From an uncultured Pelagibacteraceae bacterium (GTDB taxonomy: Bacteria; Pseudomonadota; Alphaproteobacteria; Pelagibacterales; Pelagibacteraceae): a stretch of 64,000 nucleotides of DNA. Below the pieces are notes generated by a model. That model was not told the origin of the DNA and did not search any database. It was given only the letters and a program-made list of their open reading frames with translations. Made by a program: the position numbers and the translations under genes. The stretch covers positions 39,420 to 103,419 of the forward strand of contig CACKFA010000005.1 in assembly GCA_902599335.1 (NCBI GenBank). The letters are read 5' to 3'. Below, in pieces: positions 34,716 to 39,778 of the stretch. Every line of letters starts with the position of its first letter. Positions within the stretch are counted from its first letter, which is position 1.

Positions 34716-36137
34716 ATGATAATACTGAATAAACTAAATTTAATAACAATAATATTTTTTGCTTTTTTAATAAAACTATTATTTGCTTACAATTATCCTG
34801 TAATTACTGGAGATTGGGCATCATATAACACAATAGCTAATAATATTATTAATGGCTGTGGAGTGTCATTAAGTCTTGATGGAGATCCATGTATAAAACA
34901 TTTTGGAGGTAATCAAGGACCTGGTTACCCTTTTTTTATATCTATAATTTATTCTCTTTTAGGAAAAAACACTTTTAATATTATTATAGTTCAAAATATA
35001 ATTTTAGCAATTTCTCAATTATATTTACTCAGTCAATTAAGAAAAAAAAAATTTAATGATAAATTTTTTATATTTTCAGCTTTAATAATCTGCTTCTCTC
35101 CATTGATTTTTGCTTGGTCCAGATTTTTATTAACTGAACCAATAATAATATCAGTTACTTACTTTTTAATGGGGTATTTAATAAATGGAAAAAGAAATAT
35201 TTTATTTATTGGTTTAATTTTGAGTATTGGTACTTACATCAGATTAGATTTTATTTTAATTAGTATTTTATTATTTTACTTAATATTAATTGAAAATAAA
35301 AACAAAAGTTTAATATTAAAAAAATTTATCCAAATTATTTTAATTGTTAGTGTTGCATGGTCCCCATGGTTGGCAAGAAATTATTATGCAGGAATAGATG
35401 TTTTTCCATCCGGATATCCTCAAAAAGATAATTTTTATTATCCAAGGGGATATATTAAATGGACATCAACATGGATCACAAATAGCTATCAGAGAGCTGG
35501 AGCATTAAATCATATAATGACTAATAAATATTCTAACATTAATTTAGGGAACAAATATTATTTTAAAAATAAAGAAGAAAAAAAAGTAATTGATGAACTT
35601 TTACAAAAATTAAAAGATTTCGATAATAAAAGCTTCCCGTTACAAATAGATGAAAAATTTAATAATATTGCTAAAGAATTTATTAAAAATAATAAAATTA
35701 ACTACTATATCCTCATACCCTCAAAGAGATTAGTAAATATAATATTTAATTTTACTAACAGTAATGGTTGGCCGATCGAATTTGGAAGCTCCTTTTCTCA
35801 AGAAGAAAGGGTTAAAATTAGTGAATTAAATATTTTTGAAAAAGCTTTATTTGCAATAAAAAATCTTAATAAAAAGATTTTTTATAAAATAACAATTAAT
35901 TCTTATAAGATATTTGTTTTGATAATATTTTTAGGACTTCTAATTTATAAACATAAAATTTCTATTAATAATTTATATGCAAGTATTTTTCTCTATTTTA
36001 TAACTAAATTAATCTTCATGATTATTTTTAATTATACAGAAATAAGATACTTAATAACCTGTTTTGCTCTTATAGATATCGCTATCATTTTAAAATTAGG
36101 AGATTTTTTTAAAAATAAAAATAAAATAAATTATTAA
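34716..36137 (+). CDS. Polytopic membrane glycosyltransferase (GT-C, ArnT/PMT-like)
   Basis: TM1 followed by a DWASY acidic loop, PGYPFF, LLTEP, many TM segments. Extremely A+T-rich. Confidence 0.65.
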   Translation: MIILNKLNLITIIFFAFLIKLLFAYNYPVITGDWASYNTIANNIINGCGVSLSLDGDPCIKHFGGNQGPGYPFFISIIYSLLGKNTFNIIIVQNIILAISQLYLLSQLRKKKFNDKFFIFSALIICFSPLIFAWSRFLLTEPIIISVTYFLMGYLINGKRNILFIGLILSIGTYIRLDFILISILLFYLILIENKNKSLILKKFIQIILIVSVAWSPWLARNYYAGIDVFPSGYPQKDNFYYPRGYIKWTSTWITNSYQRAGALNHIMTNKYSNINLGNKYYFKNKEEKKVIDELLQKLKDFDNKSFPLQIDEKFNNIAKEFIKNNKINYYILIPSKRLVNIIFNFTNSNGWPIEFGSSFSQEERVKISELNIFEKALFAIKNLNKKIFYKITINSYKIFVLIIFLGLLIYKHKISINNLYASIFLYFITKLIFMIIFNYTEIRYLITCFALIDIAIILKLGDFFKNKNKINY

Positions 36138-36144
36138 AATAAAA

Positions 36145-37170
36145 TCATTTAAATAAAAAAGAAAAAAACTTAAATATATAAAATATCTTCATACTCGGTT
36201 TTTTATCTGATCCAGTTTCAATCGTATTTATTTTATTTAAATTCTTATAATAATAGTTATATGAATCTAGTAAGATTTCTTTTGTTGAATTTTTAAATTT
36301 TAATTTAAGTTTTTTATTCACTTTGTCAGTGTTTAAAACAATATTTTTAGTTAGAAGTACCTTGTGGTAAAAATTAATATCCACTAAATTAAAAAAAATT
36401 AGAACATTCAATAAATATGAACCAATATAATTATTAATACTTATAATTTTTGAATTTGATTTAGATTTTTTTAATATATATTCAATATTTTCTCTAAAAG
36501 TATTTATATATTTTGCCCCAACGTTAAACAAATTTCTTTTTTTTAATTTTAAACATTTTTCAATAATGATCACTAATTCTTCTACAGATATAAAATGAAT
36601 TTTATGTTTTCCATTATCAATAAGTAATAGAGGCAGGTTGTTTCTAATTAACTCGAACAATATACCCATTCTATGACTTCTTGATTTGCCTACTACAACT
36701 GGAACTCTTAAAATTGTGAAATTGCTAATTTTTGATTTTTTTAATCTTTTTTCAATTGCAAATTTAGATTTTCCATAAAAATTTTTTGCACTCGGTATTT
36801 CATTTTCTTTAATGGATTTTGTATAATTTTTTTCATAAATAGAAAATGTTGAAGTAAAAATAAAATTTTTAATCTTATATTTTTCTGCCATAGATATAAG
36901 ATTTTGAGATGTTTTTAAATTAAAGTTATAAACATTATTATCATCATCAAATATTTCAGATGCTAAATGAATAATAGTATTGATTTCATTTTTTTTAAAA
37001 AAGTTTTCTAACTTGTCTATATCCAATAAATTGATTTTAAAAAATTTTGATTTATTTACGGAAGCATAATTTTTATCAATTAAAAATAAGTTGTGTTTTT
37101 TTTGTAATAATGCAACTAATTTTTTACCAATAAAACCAGACGAACCAGTTATTAAAATTTTTTGTTTCAT
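36145..37170 (-). CDS. NAD-dependent epimerase/dehydratase (extended SDR)
   Basis: TGSSGFIG, IHLAS, FTSTFSIY, YGKSK (YxxxK). Confidence 0.9.
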   Translation of the reverse strand: MKQKILITGSSGFIGKKLVALLQKKHNLFLIDKNYASVNKSKFFKINLLDIDKLENFFKKNEINTIIHLASEIFDDDNNVYNFNLKTSQNLISMAEKYKIKNFIFTSTFSIYEKNYTKSIKENEIPSAKNFYGKSKFAIEKRLKKSKISNFTILRVPVVVGKSRSHRMGILFELIRNNLPLLLIDNGKHKIHFISVEELVIIIEKCLKLKKRNLFNVGAKYINTFRENIEYILKKSKSNSKIISINNYIGSYLLNVLIFFNLVDINFYHKVLLTKNIVLNTDKVNKKLKLKFKNSTKEILLDSYNYYYKNLNKINTIETGSDKKPSMKIFYIFKFFSFLFK

Positions 37171-37265
37171 AGTTAAATTAGTATTAATAACAAAAAATTT
37201 GCAATAATTAATTTAAGTAATAAATATTTTTTTTGATAAAAAAATAATGTAAGATAAACACGTTG

Positions 37266-37278
37266 GTTTTCCAACTAT
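37266..37278 (+). repeat. 13-bp direct repeat, right copy, overlapping the probable ssrA -10 region (TATAAC 37276-37281)
   Basis: Identical to 34553-34565. Confidence 0.7.
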
Positions 37279-37287
37279 AACGATAAA

Positions 37288-37522
37288 TGAATTTCGTAAT
37301 AACCATTGCGGACGTGGGGGCAGTACCCACCACCTCCACCATTAAAAAATTATGGGGGTGAAATAGATTCGACGGGTGTCTAAAGGCTATTCTTTCGTTC
37401 GGGATTGTTCCACCGCAACGGGCTATTTTATAATTGCTAACGAAAGTTATGCACTTGCTGCCTAATTAACTAAGTTAATTAAGCAAACGGGGTTTGGGGC
37501 ACCTGGCAACAGAACGCCCCTT
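37288..37522 (+). ncRNA. ssrA: Permuted (two-piece) tmRNA; 5' boundary approximate
   Basis: Acceptor piece ends GTGGG-GGCAGTA-CCCAC-CACCTCC-ACCA (CCA at 37341). A 12-nt spacer precedes the coding piece, which starts GGGGGTG at 37354 (G3:U70 pair). Tag reading frame 37436-37465 encodes ANESYALAA*. Confidence 0.95.
37484..37522 (+). repeat. attL-like copy of the island direct repeat (ssrA 3' end)
   Basis: 37496-37522 is identical to 39752-39778 (27 bp); the match extends to 39 bp with 4 mismatches. Confidence 0.9.
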
Positions 37523-37578
37523 CTCATTATTAAAAAAGTTTTAATTTTCAACGTAGATTTAAATATACAACTTAGTTA

Positions 37579-37600
37579 GACGACTATAGGACGACTAGAG
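37579..37600 (+). repeat. Left arm-type repeats GACGACTA x2 (11-bp period)
   Basis: GACGACTATAGGACGACTAGAG. Confidence 0.7.
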
Positions 37601-37615
37601 ATTTAATTTTTAATT

Positions 37616-37816
37616 TTAAATTATATCGCAAGATTTTAGAATAATTGATCCAAATATTATAATTGGAACAATACCCCAAATTGCATCCATGTCTTTTTCT
37701 TTCTTTTTTTGTTTTGCAAGTTCAGAAACTGTAGGGTCAGGTTTTCCACAATGAGGACAAGCTTTGGCTGATCTTGAAACTTCTTTTCCACACTCTAAAC
37801 ATTTTGCTAAAGCCAT
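37616..37816 (-). CDS. Zinc-ribbon protein with C-terminal TM helix
   Basis: CLEC-x10-CPHC, basic linker, AIWGIVPIIIFGSIIL. Confidence 0.8.
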   Translation of the reverse strand: MALAKCLECGKEVSRSAKACPHCGKPDPTVSELAKQKKKEKDMDAIWGIVPIIIFGSIILKSCDII

Positions 37817-37820
37817 AAAA

Positions 37821-37934
37821 TTATTTCCTCATTAGAGATAATAGTAATATTAAAATTGGAATACAAATTATAAATGTTGCTGCATCAGGTGAAACACCGA
37901 GAATATCCGCCACTAAATCTCTTATTGCACTCAT
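37821..37934 (-). CDS. 37-aa single-TM microprotein (not in ORF track)
   Basis: MSAIRDLVADILGVSPDAATFIICIPILILLLSLMRK*. AAGGA lies upstream and the ORF exactly fills the gap (2 nt and 4 nt) between its neighbours. Confidence 0.7.
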   Translation of the reverse strand: MSAIRDLVADILGVSPDAATFIICIPILILLLSLMRK

Positions 37935-37936
37935 AT

Positions 37937-38479
37937 TTAATTTCCTTCCATACAATTTTTATATATTCTTTTTCCAATAGCAACTGTATCAGCGTTATCT
38001 TTACGTCTTAAACACTGTTTTCTTTTTTCAAAATAATTTAAAGGGTTTAAATCACTCAGCGCATCTCCAACAGAGTCCACAGCAGAACCAACGTTGTCTG
38101 ATAAGGAATTTTCATATGGCTTTTGATATTTACATTCATATCCCGCTGTCTTTCCGTAAGTATAAGCTGATGAATTACCAAATTTCCAAGTATATTCTTT
38201 ATATGGATTTACAAATGTACGTCCCAATCCAACACTAAAAACACTTTTAGATGATTTTTTTATTTTAATATCTGAAATTTTATCTCCATCAGAATCATTA
38301 ACGTATACTCTAGTAATTCTAACAAACTTAGAGCCATTATTTTTAAATTTAAAATTTAGAAGATTTGTTTTGTTATAATCTTTAGACCAGCTAAAATCGA
38401 TATCATTCTTACAACCTGCTTCAGCAATGTTATTAAATAGTAGAGTTATAAATAAAGTTACAAAAATATTTCTAATCAT
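37937..38479 (-). CDS. Secreted Cys-containing protein, family A (long form)
   Basis: Signal peptide ending AEA. The C-terminal 35-aa module is shared with 38771-39055. Confidence 0.85.
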   Translation of the reverse strand: MIRNIFVTLFITLLFNNIAEAGCKNDIDFSWSKDYNKTNLLNFKFKNNGSKFVRITRVYVNDSDGDKISDIKIKKSSKSVFSVGLGRTFVNPYKEYTWKFGNSSAYTYGKTAGYECKYQKPYENSLSDNVGSAVDSVGDALSDLNPLNYFEKRKQCLRRKDNADTVAIGKRIYKNCMEGN

Positions 38480-38482
38480 TTA

Positions 38483-38764
38483 TTAAGAAACCTTATCAAA
38501 ACATTTTTTGGCTAAAGGTCTTATTTCGTTTATCATATAATCATAGCCTTTATCAACCAAAGCATCTAATTGTTTATCAGTATATTTTCCATCAAACTCC
38601 TTCGCAACACAATTGCAATAGGCTTTAGCAAAACTTTTGGACTCACCATCATTTACTGAAGCAGTATAACAAGTTTGACGTTCATATAGCCTTCTCTTCT
38701 CACTTAACGCAAAAGCATTTCCAGCAAAAACTATTAGTATTAAAATTAATATTATTTTTCTCAT
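38483..38764 (-). CDS. Secreted 4-Cys protein, family B
   Basis: Signal peptide ending AFA; C-x17-CxC-x35-C; paralogue of 39055-39342. Confidence 0.85.
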   Translation of the reverse strand: MRKIILILILIVFAGNAFALSEKRRLYERQTCYTASVNDGESKSFAKAYCNCVAKEFDGKYTDKQLDALVDKGYDYMINEIRPLAKKCFDKVS

Positions 38765-38770
38765 TAAATA

Positions 38771-39055
38771 TTATCTGTATTGTTCCATGCATTGTTTATA
38801 AATTTGCTTACCTTGATATACCGTATCAGCTTGATCTCTATATCTTGAACATCTTTTACGTTTTTTAAAATAATCTGTTGGACTAAGATTGTAATCACTT
38901 GTTTTACACTTAATTTTAGTAAAAATTGATTTGTTACACCTTTCAGCCTCTTCCATTCGTAATTCTCGTAGAGTTTTTGCTTCACTACTTGAATAGAATG
39001 AGAAAATAAATGTAAATAATAATACAGATAATGAAACTTCCAATAATCTTTTCAT
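38771..39055 (-). CDS. Secreted 4-Cys protein, family A (short form)
   Basis: Signal peptide ending SEA; shared C-terminal module; TAATG coupling to the upstream gene. Confidence 0.85.
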   Translation of the reverse strand: MKRLLEVSLSVLLFTFIFSFYSSSEAKTLRELRMEEAERCNKSIFTKIKCKTSDYNLSPTDYFKKRKRCSRYRDQADTVYQGKQIYKQCMEQYR

Positions 39056-39342
39056 TAATCTCCTGGTGCTCTAGCATTTACATTACAATAATCTACAGCA
39101 AAGCTGAACATCTCATTTTGCTTCTGTTGACTCATCAAAGCAGCTCTTTCAAGTTGTGTAATAGTATATTTATCAGTAACCATTATCGTAACACATCTGC
39201 AGTATTGTTTGGCTCTTTTGCTACCAAGATGTTGTGAGGTTTCTAAGCATCCTTGGTAAATTTCATTTTGATATTCATTTAATGCAAAACCTATGTTGGG
39301 CCATATTAATATTAGGAATATTACAGATAATATTTTTTTCAT
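39055..39342 (-). CDS. Secreted 4-Cys protein, family B
   Basis: Signal peptide ending GFA; C-x15-CxC-x35-C; ATGA coupling to the upstream gene. Confidence 0.85.
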   Translation of the reverse strand: MKKILSVIFLILIWPNIGFALNEYQNEIYQGCLETSQHLGSKRAKQYCRCVTIMVTDKYTITQLERAALMSQQKQNEMFSFAVDYCNVNARAPGD

Positions 39343-39629
39343 TTAAATTGCTTAAGACCAAGTTCTGTATACGTTTCTCTGTATTCAGCACTACAATCTC
39401 CCCAAATTTGATCGTCTGTTCTGTCATTCCATGCTATTATCATACCATCAAAACAAGTTCCCATCACACTAACATTTGTTTTTCTCACATAACCAAGAAA
39501 AATATCATCTGTGCAATCTCCTAAAACTGAATTGCCCGAATCCATTTCCCAACCAATACATGGAACACCGCTCCAAGATGTATTAACTGAGAATAAACTT
39601 AAAAATAATATTGATAATATCTTTCTCAT
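39339..39629 (-). CDS. Secreted protein with three 20-aa GxC repeats
   Basis: Signal peptide followed by PCIGWEMDSGNSVLGDCTDD / IFLGYVRKTNVSVMGTCFDG / MIIAWNDRTDDQIWGDCSAE. Confidence 0.8.
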   Translation of the reverse strand: MRKILSILFLSLFSVNTSWSGVPCIGWEMDSGNSVLGDCTDDIFLGYVRKTNVSVMGTCFDGMIIAWNDRTDDQIWGDCSAEYRETYTELGLKQFK

Positions 39630-39659: not shown

Positions 39660-39700
39660 GACGACTCGATTTTTGGACGTCATTTGGACGACCAGAGACG
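39660..39700 (+). repeat. Right arm-type repeats GACG(A/T)C
   Basis: GACGAC 39660, GACGTC 39676, GACGAC 39687, GACG 39697. GGACGACCAGAG (39686-39697) vs GGACGACTAGAG (37589-37600). Confidence 0.7.
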
Positions 39701-39739: not shown

Positions 39740-39778
39740 CAAACAAAGTTCGGGGCACCTGGCAACAGAACGCCCCTT
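39740..39778 (+). repeat. attR-like copy of the island direct repeat
   Basis: CAAACAAAGTTCGGGGCACCTGGCAACAGAACGCCCCTT, followed by further T residues. Confidence 0.9.

What the first reader, a model, noticed from the sequence alone, without database searches (positions are those of the whole stretch)
37937..39342. Family B paralogues alternate with family A: a duplicated B-A gene pair
Seen: both B proteins have FAL.E after the signal peptide and C-x(15/17)-CxC-x35-C with AK.YC.CV and KYT..QL conserved. Transcription order is B1(39342)-A1(39055)-B2(38764)-A2(38479). Inference: B-A is the functional unit, for example cognate binding partners such as effector/immunity or chaperone/client, expanded in tandem and diversified.
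Basis: partly seen in the sequence, partly recalled or inferred. Interest (0 to 1): 0.65.

Follow-up and report, generated by a model that had tools for sequence, protein, structure and literature searches.

The report
Shuffled secreted mini-protein cassette operon
The alternating B-A-B-A genes are real, but they are interchangeable cassettes of small exported proteins, not a duplicated partner pair; the operon is one that SAR11 mobile elements carry, it sits here in a 2.3-kb islet inserted at the tmRNA gene, and its function is unknown.

Summary
Observation confirmed. On the minus strand, B1 (39342-39055), A1 (39055-38771), B2 (38764-38483) and A2 (38479-37937) alternate. B1/B2 share the C-x15/17-CxC-x35-C pattern. 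A1/A2 share a 36-aa C-terminal module. All four are under purifying selection.

The genes belong to a seven-gene operon (X-B1-A1-B2-A2-tiny-Zn66). It lies in a 2.26-kb integrase-less islet bounded by a duplicated 27-nt 3' end of the tmRNA gene, in a SAR11 (Pelagibacter) genome.

In about 26 distinct related arrays the same families occur in shuffled order. The usual block is Zn-ribbon - A1 - B2 - (A2 | membrane-anchored A-like | nothing) - tiny. Some arrays sit on elements with integrase, primase or small terminase.
- B1 followed by A1 occurs only in the window-type array.
- A1 followed by B2 occurs in 10 of 14 arrays, and B followed by A2 in 7 of 11.
- A occurs without B, and B without A. One B subtype is a fixed chromosomal gene, and B-domain relatives occur in a Bacteroidota MAG.

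Signal-peptide coding regions are swapped between unrelated families, which gives a shuffling mechanism. No known family or fold matches either protein. The most likely role is envelope-acting accessory cargo, possibly phage exclusion; this is inferred, not shown.

The parts
37223..37556 (+). tmRNA gene (alphaproteobacterial two-piece, permuted); integration target
   Evidence: Rfam RF01849, 223 bits; ARAGORN permuted tmRNA, tag ANESYALAA
37496..37522 (+). Left att core: exact 27-nt GGGGCACCTGGCAACAGAACGCCCCTT at the 3' end of the tmRNA gene
   Evidence: Direct repeat D2. The genome holds only these two exact copies.
37616..37816 (-). Zn66: 66-aa protein with an N-terminal CxxC-x10-CxxC zinc ribbon and a C-terminal membrane helix; last gene of the operon
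   Evidence: Pfam Zn_Ribbon_1 E 4.5e-6. The same 66-aa form follows 'tiny' in L073 and L086, and longer 144-292-aa relatives open most related arrays.
37821..37934 (-). 'tiny': 37-aa single-helix membrane peptide (ATG at 37934; the ORF list starts it at TTG 37955)
   Evidence: 76% identical 37-aa orthologues close the array in nearly all related loci. dN/dS is about 0.2.
37937..38479 (-). A2: exported 180-aa protein with a variable N-terminal domain plus the A module (basic C-terminal hairpin, C-x19-C)
   Evidence: Orthologues lie in L029 and L080. Short (85-100 aa) A2-type forms occupy the same position before 'tiny'.
38483..38764 (-). B2: exported 93-aa protein; the mature part is a predicted four-helix domain with 4 invariant Cys
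   Evidence: AlphaFold model pLDDT 89.4, pTM 0.74.
38771..39055 (-). A1: exported 94-aa all-helical protein ending in the A module
   Evidence: In the model, the C-terminal region that holds the hairpin (helices 59-75 and 79-89) averages pLDDT 89-95.
39055..39342 (-). B1: exported 95-aa B-family protein of a different subtype from B2
   Evidence: Orthologues in other arrays have other neighbours.
39339..39629 (-). X: first gene of the operon; acidic exported 96-aa protein with 4 Cys
   Evidence: Homologues lie in L080 and L088. pI 4.1.
39752..39778 (+). Right att core: second exact copy of the 27-nt tmRNA 3' end
   Evidence: The same core lies between ppdK and a related array in L033.

Best explanation
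The four genes are part of one operon, X-B1-A1-B2-A2-tiny-Zn66. It fills a 2.26-kb integrase-less islet inserted at the 3' end of the tmRNA gene of a SAR11 (Pelagibacter) genome. The operon is the accessory module of a family of SAR11 integrative elements. Elsewhere the same module lies next to a tyrosine integrase and near primase/helicase or small-terminase genes, as in the phage-satellite-like elements (VEIMEs) described for Pelagibacter.

A and B are two unrelated families of small Sec-exported proteins with four Cys each.
- B is a compact predicted four-helix domain. It also exists as a fixed chromosomal gene and as tandem repeats within single proteins in other bacteria, including a Bacteroidota MAG.
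- A is a strongly basic C-terminal helical hairpin (C-x19-C). It is carried on interchangeable N-terminal parts: a short Cys pair, a roughly 120-aa domain, or (in weaker, profile-only matches) a membrane anchor.

The alternation in this window is not a duplicated B-A pair. It is [X-B1] placed in front of the widespread block [A1-B2-A2-tiny]. Arrays are rebuilt cassette by cassette, by recombination in the shared signal-peptide coding 5' ends.

Inferred function, not shown: the products act in the periplasm or envelope of the carrier cell as conversion-type cargo. The most likely role is blocking superinfecting phage at the envelope. A's constant hairpin would be a common docking piece, and B a stable binding domain.

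My confidence is about 0.85 for the architecture and evolution part and about 0.3 for the function.
For: Islet and operon:
- tmRNA at 37223-37556 and an exact 27-nt repeat at 37496 and 39752.
- No element-type integrase lies nearby. The genome gives a single tyrosine recombinase hit, on another contig.
- The same 3'-end core is duplicated 0.3-6 kb from the tmRNA gene in other genomes of the genus, and up to 5 copies stand in a row on one further contig, with other cargo between them.

Mobile-element link:
- L024: tRNA, then integrase, Zn, A, C151, B, tiny, then further along Trypsin_2 and DUF5906.
- L027: AAA_25 and Terminase_2 upstream of Zn-A-C151-A-B-tiny.
- L032: trypsin and HNH upstream of Zn-A-B.
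- This matches the gene content reported for Pelagibacter VEIME modules 2 and 6 (PMC9618062).

Shuffled orders are shown.

Signal-peptide swaps:
- C151 of L026/L076 has a B2-type 5' end: 88% nt identity over the first 57 nt, then 22%.
- C151 of L024 has an A1-type 5' end: 91%, then 37%.

Real exported proteins:
- dN/dS is 0.05-0.42.
- By eye, each protein has a basic N-terminus, a hydrophobic stretch and an AxA-like cleavage site.
- Each mature protein has 4 Cys.
- The genome has two DsbA-family genes.

Structure models: B pLDDT 89, four helices; A hairpin region mean pLDDT 89-95.

B beyond the array:
- The B3 subtype follows the PGM/PMM gene in 25 of 25 loci.
- The B profile matches 364 clusters, with 2-4 B domains per protein in many.
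Against: - No experiment and no homology points to a function. Pfam, PHROGs, PADLOC, NCBIfam, PDB sequence search and Foldseek against PDB and BFVD give nothing significant.
- Neither family was found in INPHARED phages or IMG/VR contigs. The link to virus-packaged satellites rests on gene content of metagenome contigs only.
- Export is inferred by eye; no signal-peptide predictor was run.
- The frequent A1-B2 and B-A2 adjacencies could reflect a real physical partnership that this reading plays down.
- The arrays are related by descent, so the counts are not independent samples.
Confidence: 0.42

Rival explanations
1. A and B do bind each other, but the unit is not a duplicated B-A pair. The A hairpin would dock on the B four-helix domain, giving A1-B2-A2-type periplasmic complexes. 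Cassette choice would then change the variable heads displayed on a constant B core.
For: - A1 followed by B2 in 10 of 14 arrays, and B followed by A2-type in 7 of 11.
- Membrane-anchored proteins with an A-like C-terminus also follow B2 in L006, L077, L033-35 and L032 (hhalign probability 82% for the L006 protein, the only one tested).
- A is strongly basic (+8/+9) while B is near neutral.
- B is more constrained than A.
Against: - A occurs without B (L069, L084, L087).
- B occurs without A (B3 subtype, B-B tandems, L031, L057-59).
- No B-A fusion among the 150 best B-family representatives.
- B2 sequence is unchanged across different A neighbours.
- Adjacency may simply be inherited from one common block.
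Confidence: 0.18
2. One reading: B-A is a cognate two-gene unit (effector/immunity or chaperone/client) that was duplicated in tandem and then diversified.
For: The alternation in the window and in L080. B1/A1 overlap by one base, which suggests translational coupling. B followed by A2-type recurs.
Against: - B1-A1 adjacency is found only in the window-type array.
- The same one-base junction after B1 leads into B2 in L033-35.
- A1 and A2 are distinct old subtypes with different fixed positions: A1 after Zn and before B2, A2 before 'tiny'.
- B1 and B2 are only about 27-35% identical, yet each has orthologues of 85% or more in other arrays.
- No toxin or immunity family matches.
- Both partners carry export signals.
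- A was found in 1 of 301 genus genomes, B in far more.
Confidence: 0.08
3. Housekeeping-type periplasmic proteins (redox, metal or substrate handling, envelope assembly) that vary between strains as flexible-genome paralogues. On this reading the mobile-element context is incidental.
For: - B3 is a syntenic chromosomal gene co-oriented with, and overlapping the end of, the PGM/PMM gene in 25 of 25 loci.
- The B domain is widespread.
- The CxC motif and four invariant Cys could be redox- or metal-active.
- SAR11 flexible islands are reported to carry paralogous envelope and transport functions (PMC11796062; bioRxiv 10.64898/2026.10.07.757358).
Against: The A, B1 and B2 types are rare among species genomes but recur next to integrase, primase and terminase genes and inside att-bounded islets. 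No similarity to any known binding or redox family was found.
Confidence: 0.15
4. A bacteriocin-like antagonism locus. The small exported Cys-rich proteins would be released toxins, and the membrane proteins 'tiny' and Zn-ribbon would provide immunity or export.
For: Small disulfide-rich exported peptides sit next to small membrane proteins. Combinatorial diversity is high. A proteins are cationic.
Against: No dedicated exporter, leader-cleavage motif or known bacteriocin or immunity family was found. Standard Sec-type leaders would place the products in the periplasm of a Gram-negative cell. B also exists as a conserved chromosomal gene.
Confidence: 0.1
5. The ORFs are chance open frames in AT-rich DNA.
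For: The window is about 30% G+C, where long chance ORFs are common.
Against: There are hundreds of conserved homologues of constant length. dN/dS is 0.05-0.42. The B fold model is confident.
Confidence: 0.01

Closest known systems
tRNA/tmRNA-linked flexible genomic islands of SAR11 (Molina-Pardines et al. 2025, PMC11796062) and tycheposon-type island accumulation at tRNA/tmRNA genes
   Same: The insertion is at the 3' end of the tmRNA gene, with a partial repeat of that gene marking the far end. No integrase remains. Neighbouring genomes carry different cargo at the same site, sometimes several repeat-bounded units in a row.
   Different: The islet is very small (2.26 kb) and consists of a single operon of exported mini-proteins. 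I did not find its content described in the papers I read.
[quoted passage not shown] 2022, PMC9618062)
   Same: Related arrays lie on contigs with tyrosine integrase, DUF5906 or AAA_25 primase/helicase, small terminase, HNH and periplasmic serine protease. These are the gene suites reported for Pelagibacter VEIME modules 2 and 6.
   Different: The window copy has none of these core genes. Neither family was found in IMG/VR or INPHARED. Packaging into virions was not shown for these particular contigs.
Envelope-level superinfection exclusion proteins of phages, such as T4 Spackle (small periplasmic helical protein) and T5 Llp or phi80 Cor (receptor-blocking lipoproteins); comparison from my own knowledge
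   Same: They are small, exported, encoded by a mobile element, highly variable between elements, and expressed from the integrated state as accessory cargo.
   Different: There is no sequence or fold match (one search gives no PDB hit better than E 1.7). There is no lipobox. No phenotype is known. This is an analogy only.
Orphan-cassette arrays of polymorphic toxin/immunity loci (CDI, Rhs, Maf), where conserved junction sequences let cassettes be swapped; comparison from my own knowledge
   Same: Tandem cassettes are exchanged by recombination in a conserved 5' segment. Here that segment is the signal-peptide coding region.
   Different: No toxin or immunity domains are present, no large delivery protein is present, and every cassette is a complete exported protein.

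Membership tests
Cognate two-gene pair (toxin/immunity or chaperone/client) duplicated in tandem | The two genes are adjacent in a fixed order wherever they occur | tested here: not met
   B1 followed by A1 occurs only in the window-type array. The orders B-A, A-B, B-B, A-C151, C151-B, A alone and B alone are all seen.
Cognate two-gene pair (toxin/immunity or chaperone/client) duplicated in tandem | The partners co-diversify, so each variant of one goes with its own variant of the other | tested here: not met
   B2 stays 82-96% identical next to A1 (77-95%), A1' (63%), C151, A2 forms, A-like anchors or nothing.
Cognate two-gene pair (toxin/immunity or chaperone/client) duplicated in tandem | A recognisable toxin, immunity or chaperone domain | tested here: not met
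   No significant hit in Pfam, NCBIfam, PADLOC, PHROGs, PDB or BFVD.
Cognate two-gene pair (toxin/immunity or chaperone/client) duplicated in tandem | Direct physical interaction of A with B | not testable with these tools
   Only single-chain prediction is offered. No natural B-A fusion was found among 150 B representatives.
tRNA/tmRNA-integrated genomic island | Direct repeat of the 3' end of the target RNA gene bounding the insert | tested here: met
   Exact 27-nt repeat at 37496-37522 and 39752-39778. These are the only two copies in the genome.
tRNA/tmRNA-integrated genomic island | Site-specific recombinase within the island | tested here: not met
   No integrase lies between the repeats. 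The genome's single PF00589 hit is on another contig. Related arrays do sit beside an integrase (L024, and a fragment in L006).
Phage satellite / VEIME | Integrase plus replication (primase/helicase) and packaging-interference genes (e.g. small terminase) on one small element | tested here: inconclusive
   Not met in the window. Met piecemeal on related metagenome contigs: L024 has Int and DUF5906, and L027 has AAA_25 and Terminase_2. No complete element was delimited.
Phage satellite / VEIME | Encapsidation in helper-phage virions | not testable with these tools
   No hit in IMG/VR or INPHARED. This needs virome long reads or experiments.
Envelope-level superinfection exclusion proteins (e.g. 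T4 Spackle) | Small exported protein encoded by a mobile element | tested here: met
   Leader-like N-termini were judged by eye. The mature parts are 68-159 aa with 4 Cys. The mobile-element context is shown.
Envelope-level superinfection exclusion proteins (e.g. T4 Spackle) | Fold or sequence similarity to a known exclusion protein | tested here: not met
   Best Foldseek PDB hit E 1.7 and best BFVD hit E 0.28, none an exclusion protein.
Envelope-level superinfection exclusion proteins (e.g. T4 Spackle) | Blocks infection by a second phage | not testable with these tools
   Needs phage challenge of Pelagibacter cultures with and without the operon.

The most novel reading that the evidence does not exclude
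The Zn-ribbon ... tiny operon would be a combinatorial envelope 'immune repertoire' of SAR11 phage satellites. Interchangeable exported mini-domains (A, B, C151, X and others) would be re-dealt by recombination in their signal-peptide coding regions. Each combination would block a different set of pelagiphages at adsorption or DNA entry. In the ocean's most abundant bacterium this would be a periplasmic counterpart of cytoplasmic defence islands.
Probability: 0.2. Interest if true: 0.75.

Novelty: new variant of a known kind. Interest (0 to 1): 0.4.

Why it matters
SAR11 is the most abundant bacterial group in the surface ocean, and most of its strain-variable genes have no known function. This operon type gives a concrete, recurrent and experimentally small target: seven genes in 2 kb. 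It links phage-satellite-like elements to the cell envelope.

It also defines two unannotated protein families. One of them, B, is a confidently modelled four-helix domain with four conserved Cys. It matches at least 364 sequence clusters, reaches a Bacteroidota MAG, and has no Pfam entry.

The signal-peptide swaps suggest a simple way in which exported-protein cassettes are re-dealt. For the finding as written, the main result is corrective. The B-A 'pair' comes from where one starts reading a shuffled array, so pair-wise toxin/immunity experiments should be redesigned around the A1-B2-A2-tiny block.

Tried and rejected
- The weak 'B' hits in another genus of the family (L014-L022) are CcmH-like proteins with an RCxxCQGQS motif, so they are false positives.
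- I thought the A2 N-terminal domain resembled the N-terminal domain of a B-fusion protein (P0234). BLASTP shows nothing, so I dropped the idea.
- The C-terminal domain of B-fusion proteins against C151 gives only E 0.04. I did not use it.
- The search for related loci with the B alignment failed because there was no stretch conserved enough.
- Viral collections gave no hit for A, B2 or the Zn-ribbon protein: INPHARED and IMG/VR.
- Foldseek of both models against PDB, and of B against BFVD, gave nothing below E 0.28. PDB sequence profiles gave nothing.
- The promoter and terminator scan was no better than shuffled sequence.
- P0216, a B3-like sequence fused to a eukaryote-type reverse transcriptase, looks like a chimeric assembly, so I ignored it.
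Full report
**1. What is there**

The window is about 30% G+C. It belongs to a 1.27-Mb genome that is 93% complete. Close homologues of the proteins are named Candidatus Pelagibacter, so this is SAR11.

The minus strand between 39629 and 37616 carries seven tightly packed ORFs:
- X (96 aa)
- B1 (95 aa)
- A1 (94 aa)
- B2 (93 aa)
- A2 (180 aa)
- a 37-aa membrane peptide, 'tiny' (ATG at 37934)
- a 66-aa zinc-ribbon protein with a C-terminal membrane helix, Zn66

A1 and A2 share only a 36-aa C-terminal module (61% identity, E 2e-14). A and B are unrelated to each other beyond their leaders.

All four have many metagenomic homologues of constant length. dN/dS is 0.05-0.42, so they are real genes. 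Each mature protein has four Cys. A1 and A2 are strongly basic and B is near neutral. The genome has two DsbA-family genes. Export is inferred from leader-like N-termini judged by eye.

**2. Where it sits**

A two-piece alphaproteobacterial tmRNA gene ends just left of the operon (37223-37556). Its last 27 nt (37496-37522) are repeated exactly at 39752-39778, just right of X. These are the only two copies in the genome.

The operon therefore fills a 2.26-kb insert bounded by att-like repeats. The insert has no integrase. The genome's only tyrosine recombinase hit is elsewhere.

In other genomes of the genus the same tmRNA end is duplicated 0.3-6 kb from the gene. On one further contig (G180) five copies stand in a row. 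The cargo between the repeats differs and is often leader-bearing proteins, never A or B. A tmRNA-linked flexible island in SAR11 has been reported (PMC11796062).

**3. Related arrays**

I collected contexts from B-centred and A-centred searches. They give about 26 distinct arrays.

The usual frame is a 144-292-aa Zn-ribbon membrane protein first and 'tiny' last, with a variable set of exported proteins between them. The orders seen are:
- Zn-A1-B2-tiny
- Zn-A1-B2-A2-tiny
- A1-B2-A2-tiny-Zn66
- Zn-A-C151-B2-tiny
- Zn-A-C151-A-B2-tiny
- Zn-B1-B2-(anchored A-like)-tiny
- Zn-B2-(anchored A-like)-tiny
- B1-A2-tiny
- B1 followed by a 152-aa protein
- Zn-A2-tiny
- A2-Zn-tiny
- B-B
- B followed by a B-fusion protein, then tiny
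- X-B1-A1-B2-A2-tiny, in the window and one Tara contig only

Some arrays lie on mobile elements:
- L024: tRNA, then integrase, then the array, then Trypsin_2 and DUF5906.
- L027: AAA_25 helicase and small terminase, then the array.
- L032: ppdK, trypsin, HNH, then the array.
- L033: ppdK, the same att core, then the array.

These gene suites match those reported for Pelagibacter VEIMEs (PMC9618062). No hit was found in INPHARED or IMG/VR.

**4. Test of the 'B-A unit'**

Adjacency counts over distinct arrays:
- A1-type genes: followed by B2 in 10 of 14 arrays and preceded by B in 1 of 14.
- A2-type genes: preceded by B in 7 of 11 arrays and followed by 'tiny' in 7 of 11.
- Element-borne B genes (B1 and B2 types): followed by a canonical A in 7 of 19 cases, by a membrane-anchored protein with an A-like C-terminus in 4 of 19, and by something else in 8 of 19. 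Only one of the anchored proteins (L006) was tested against the A profile (hhalign probability 82%).

So the window reads best as [X-B1] + [A1-B2-A2-tiny], not as (B1-A1)(B2-A2).

Other points against a cognate pair:
- B2 keeps 82-96% identity whatever stands next to it.
- A is absent from 300 of 301 species genomes of the genus. Among 185,579 species genomes it occurs in one further single-cell genome.
- B gives E<=1e-3 hits in 31 of the same 301 genomes, about 24 of them clear.
- The B3 subtype follows the PGM/PMM gene in 25 of 25 loci.
- The B profile finds 364 clusters among 1.84 billion representatives. Many have 2-4 B domains in one protein, including one from a Bacteroidota MAG.
- None of the 150 best B representatives contains an A module.

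The association of A with B is real, but a duplicated cognate pair is not what the data show.

**5. How the arrays are re-dealt**

The first 57 nt of C151 in L026/L076 are 88% identical to the 5' end of B2. Identity then drops to 22%. The first 57 nt of C151 in L024 are 91% identical to an A1-type 5' end, then 37%.

Unrelated mature domains thus carry each other's signal-peptide coding regions. This points to recombination in these shared 5' segments as the way cassettes are inserted, deleted and reordered. The one-base stop/start junction after B1 is the same whether A1 (window) or B2 (L033-35) follows.

**6. What the proteins look like**

B2, modelled with a 47-sequence alignment, gives a confident four-helix domain (pLDDT 89.4, pTM 0.74). 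The invariant Cys lie on helices 1, 2 (the CxC) and 4. Two disulfides are my inference.

A1 is all-helical. The C-terminal region that holds its conserved hairpin averages pLDDT 89-95.

Neither model nor either profile matches anything known.

**7. Function**

Nothing here shows a function. The relevant observations are:
- The proteins appear to be exported.
- They are carried as cargo next to the integrase of satellite-like elements.
- They are strongly combinatorial.
- In A, a constant hairpin is combined with variable heads.
- Periplasmic proteases lie next to some arrays.

From these I favour envelope-acting conversion cargo, most likely exclusion of superinfecting phage. By analogy it would work like T4 Spackle or T5 Llp, but it is not a member of those families. 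I put this at about 0.3.

The rivals are an A:B complex with a different unit, housekeeping periplasmic functions, and bacteriocin-like antagonism. The report sections give the evidence for each.

**8. Verdict**

The islet and its element context are of a known kind. The operon type, the two protein families and the leader-mediated shuffling are, as far as I could find, undescribed. Interest is moderate.

Noticed in passing
window 37579-37595 and 39660-39692: Four of the five GACGAC hexamers in the whole 64-kb window lie just inside the two islet ends, all in the same orientation. They may be recombinase arm-type sites.
   Followed up: partly
G180:C12:55600-63300 (L123); also G166, G171, G177, G181, G186: The tmRNA 3'-end core is repeated up to five times in a row. 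Unrelated cargo sits between the copies, mostly leader-bearing proteins. In G160 a weaker copy lies 6.3 kb from the tmRNA gene, with two large ORFs (826 and 789 aa) in between that I did not annotate. The tmRNA site looks like an accumulating island hotspot in this genus.
   Followed up: partly
L128-L133 (G158, G175, G167, G159, G184): Single copies of the same core sequence stand far from the tmRNA gene, after unrelated genes. They could be secondary att sites or a shared terminator-like hairpin.
   Followed up: no
G000:C10:6832-7107 (L003 1432-1719, minus strand): A third B paralogue (B3) overlaps the end of a phosphoglucomutase/phosphomannomutase gene. This arrangement is conserved in 25 of 25 loci of the genus.
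   Followed up: yes
window 34716-37170: Very low G+C (19-21%) stretch left of the tmRNA gene. It holds a 473-aa multi-pass membrane protein and a 341-aa ORF that looks like an NAD-dependent epimerase. Both are read by eye and neither was scanned. It looks like a separate flexible envelope cassette.
   Followed up: no
L024 3081-3300: tRNA-Val is followed by a second tRNA-like sequence with a CAT anticodon, which ARAGORN did not call. The integrase-bearing element appears to be inserted in its 3' part.
   Followed up: partly
L024 6165-7172, L029 5588-6004, L031 6255-6713, L057, L085: Further exported proteins in these arrays end in C-x(3-6)-K-F and often begin their mature part with GWFDK. They probably form one or more additional cassette families.
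   Followed up: no
window 39339-39629: X is acidic (pI 4.1) with four Cys. It has homologues in L080 and L088, in the latter not next to B1-A1.
   Followed up: partly
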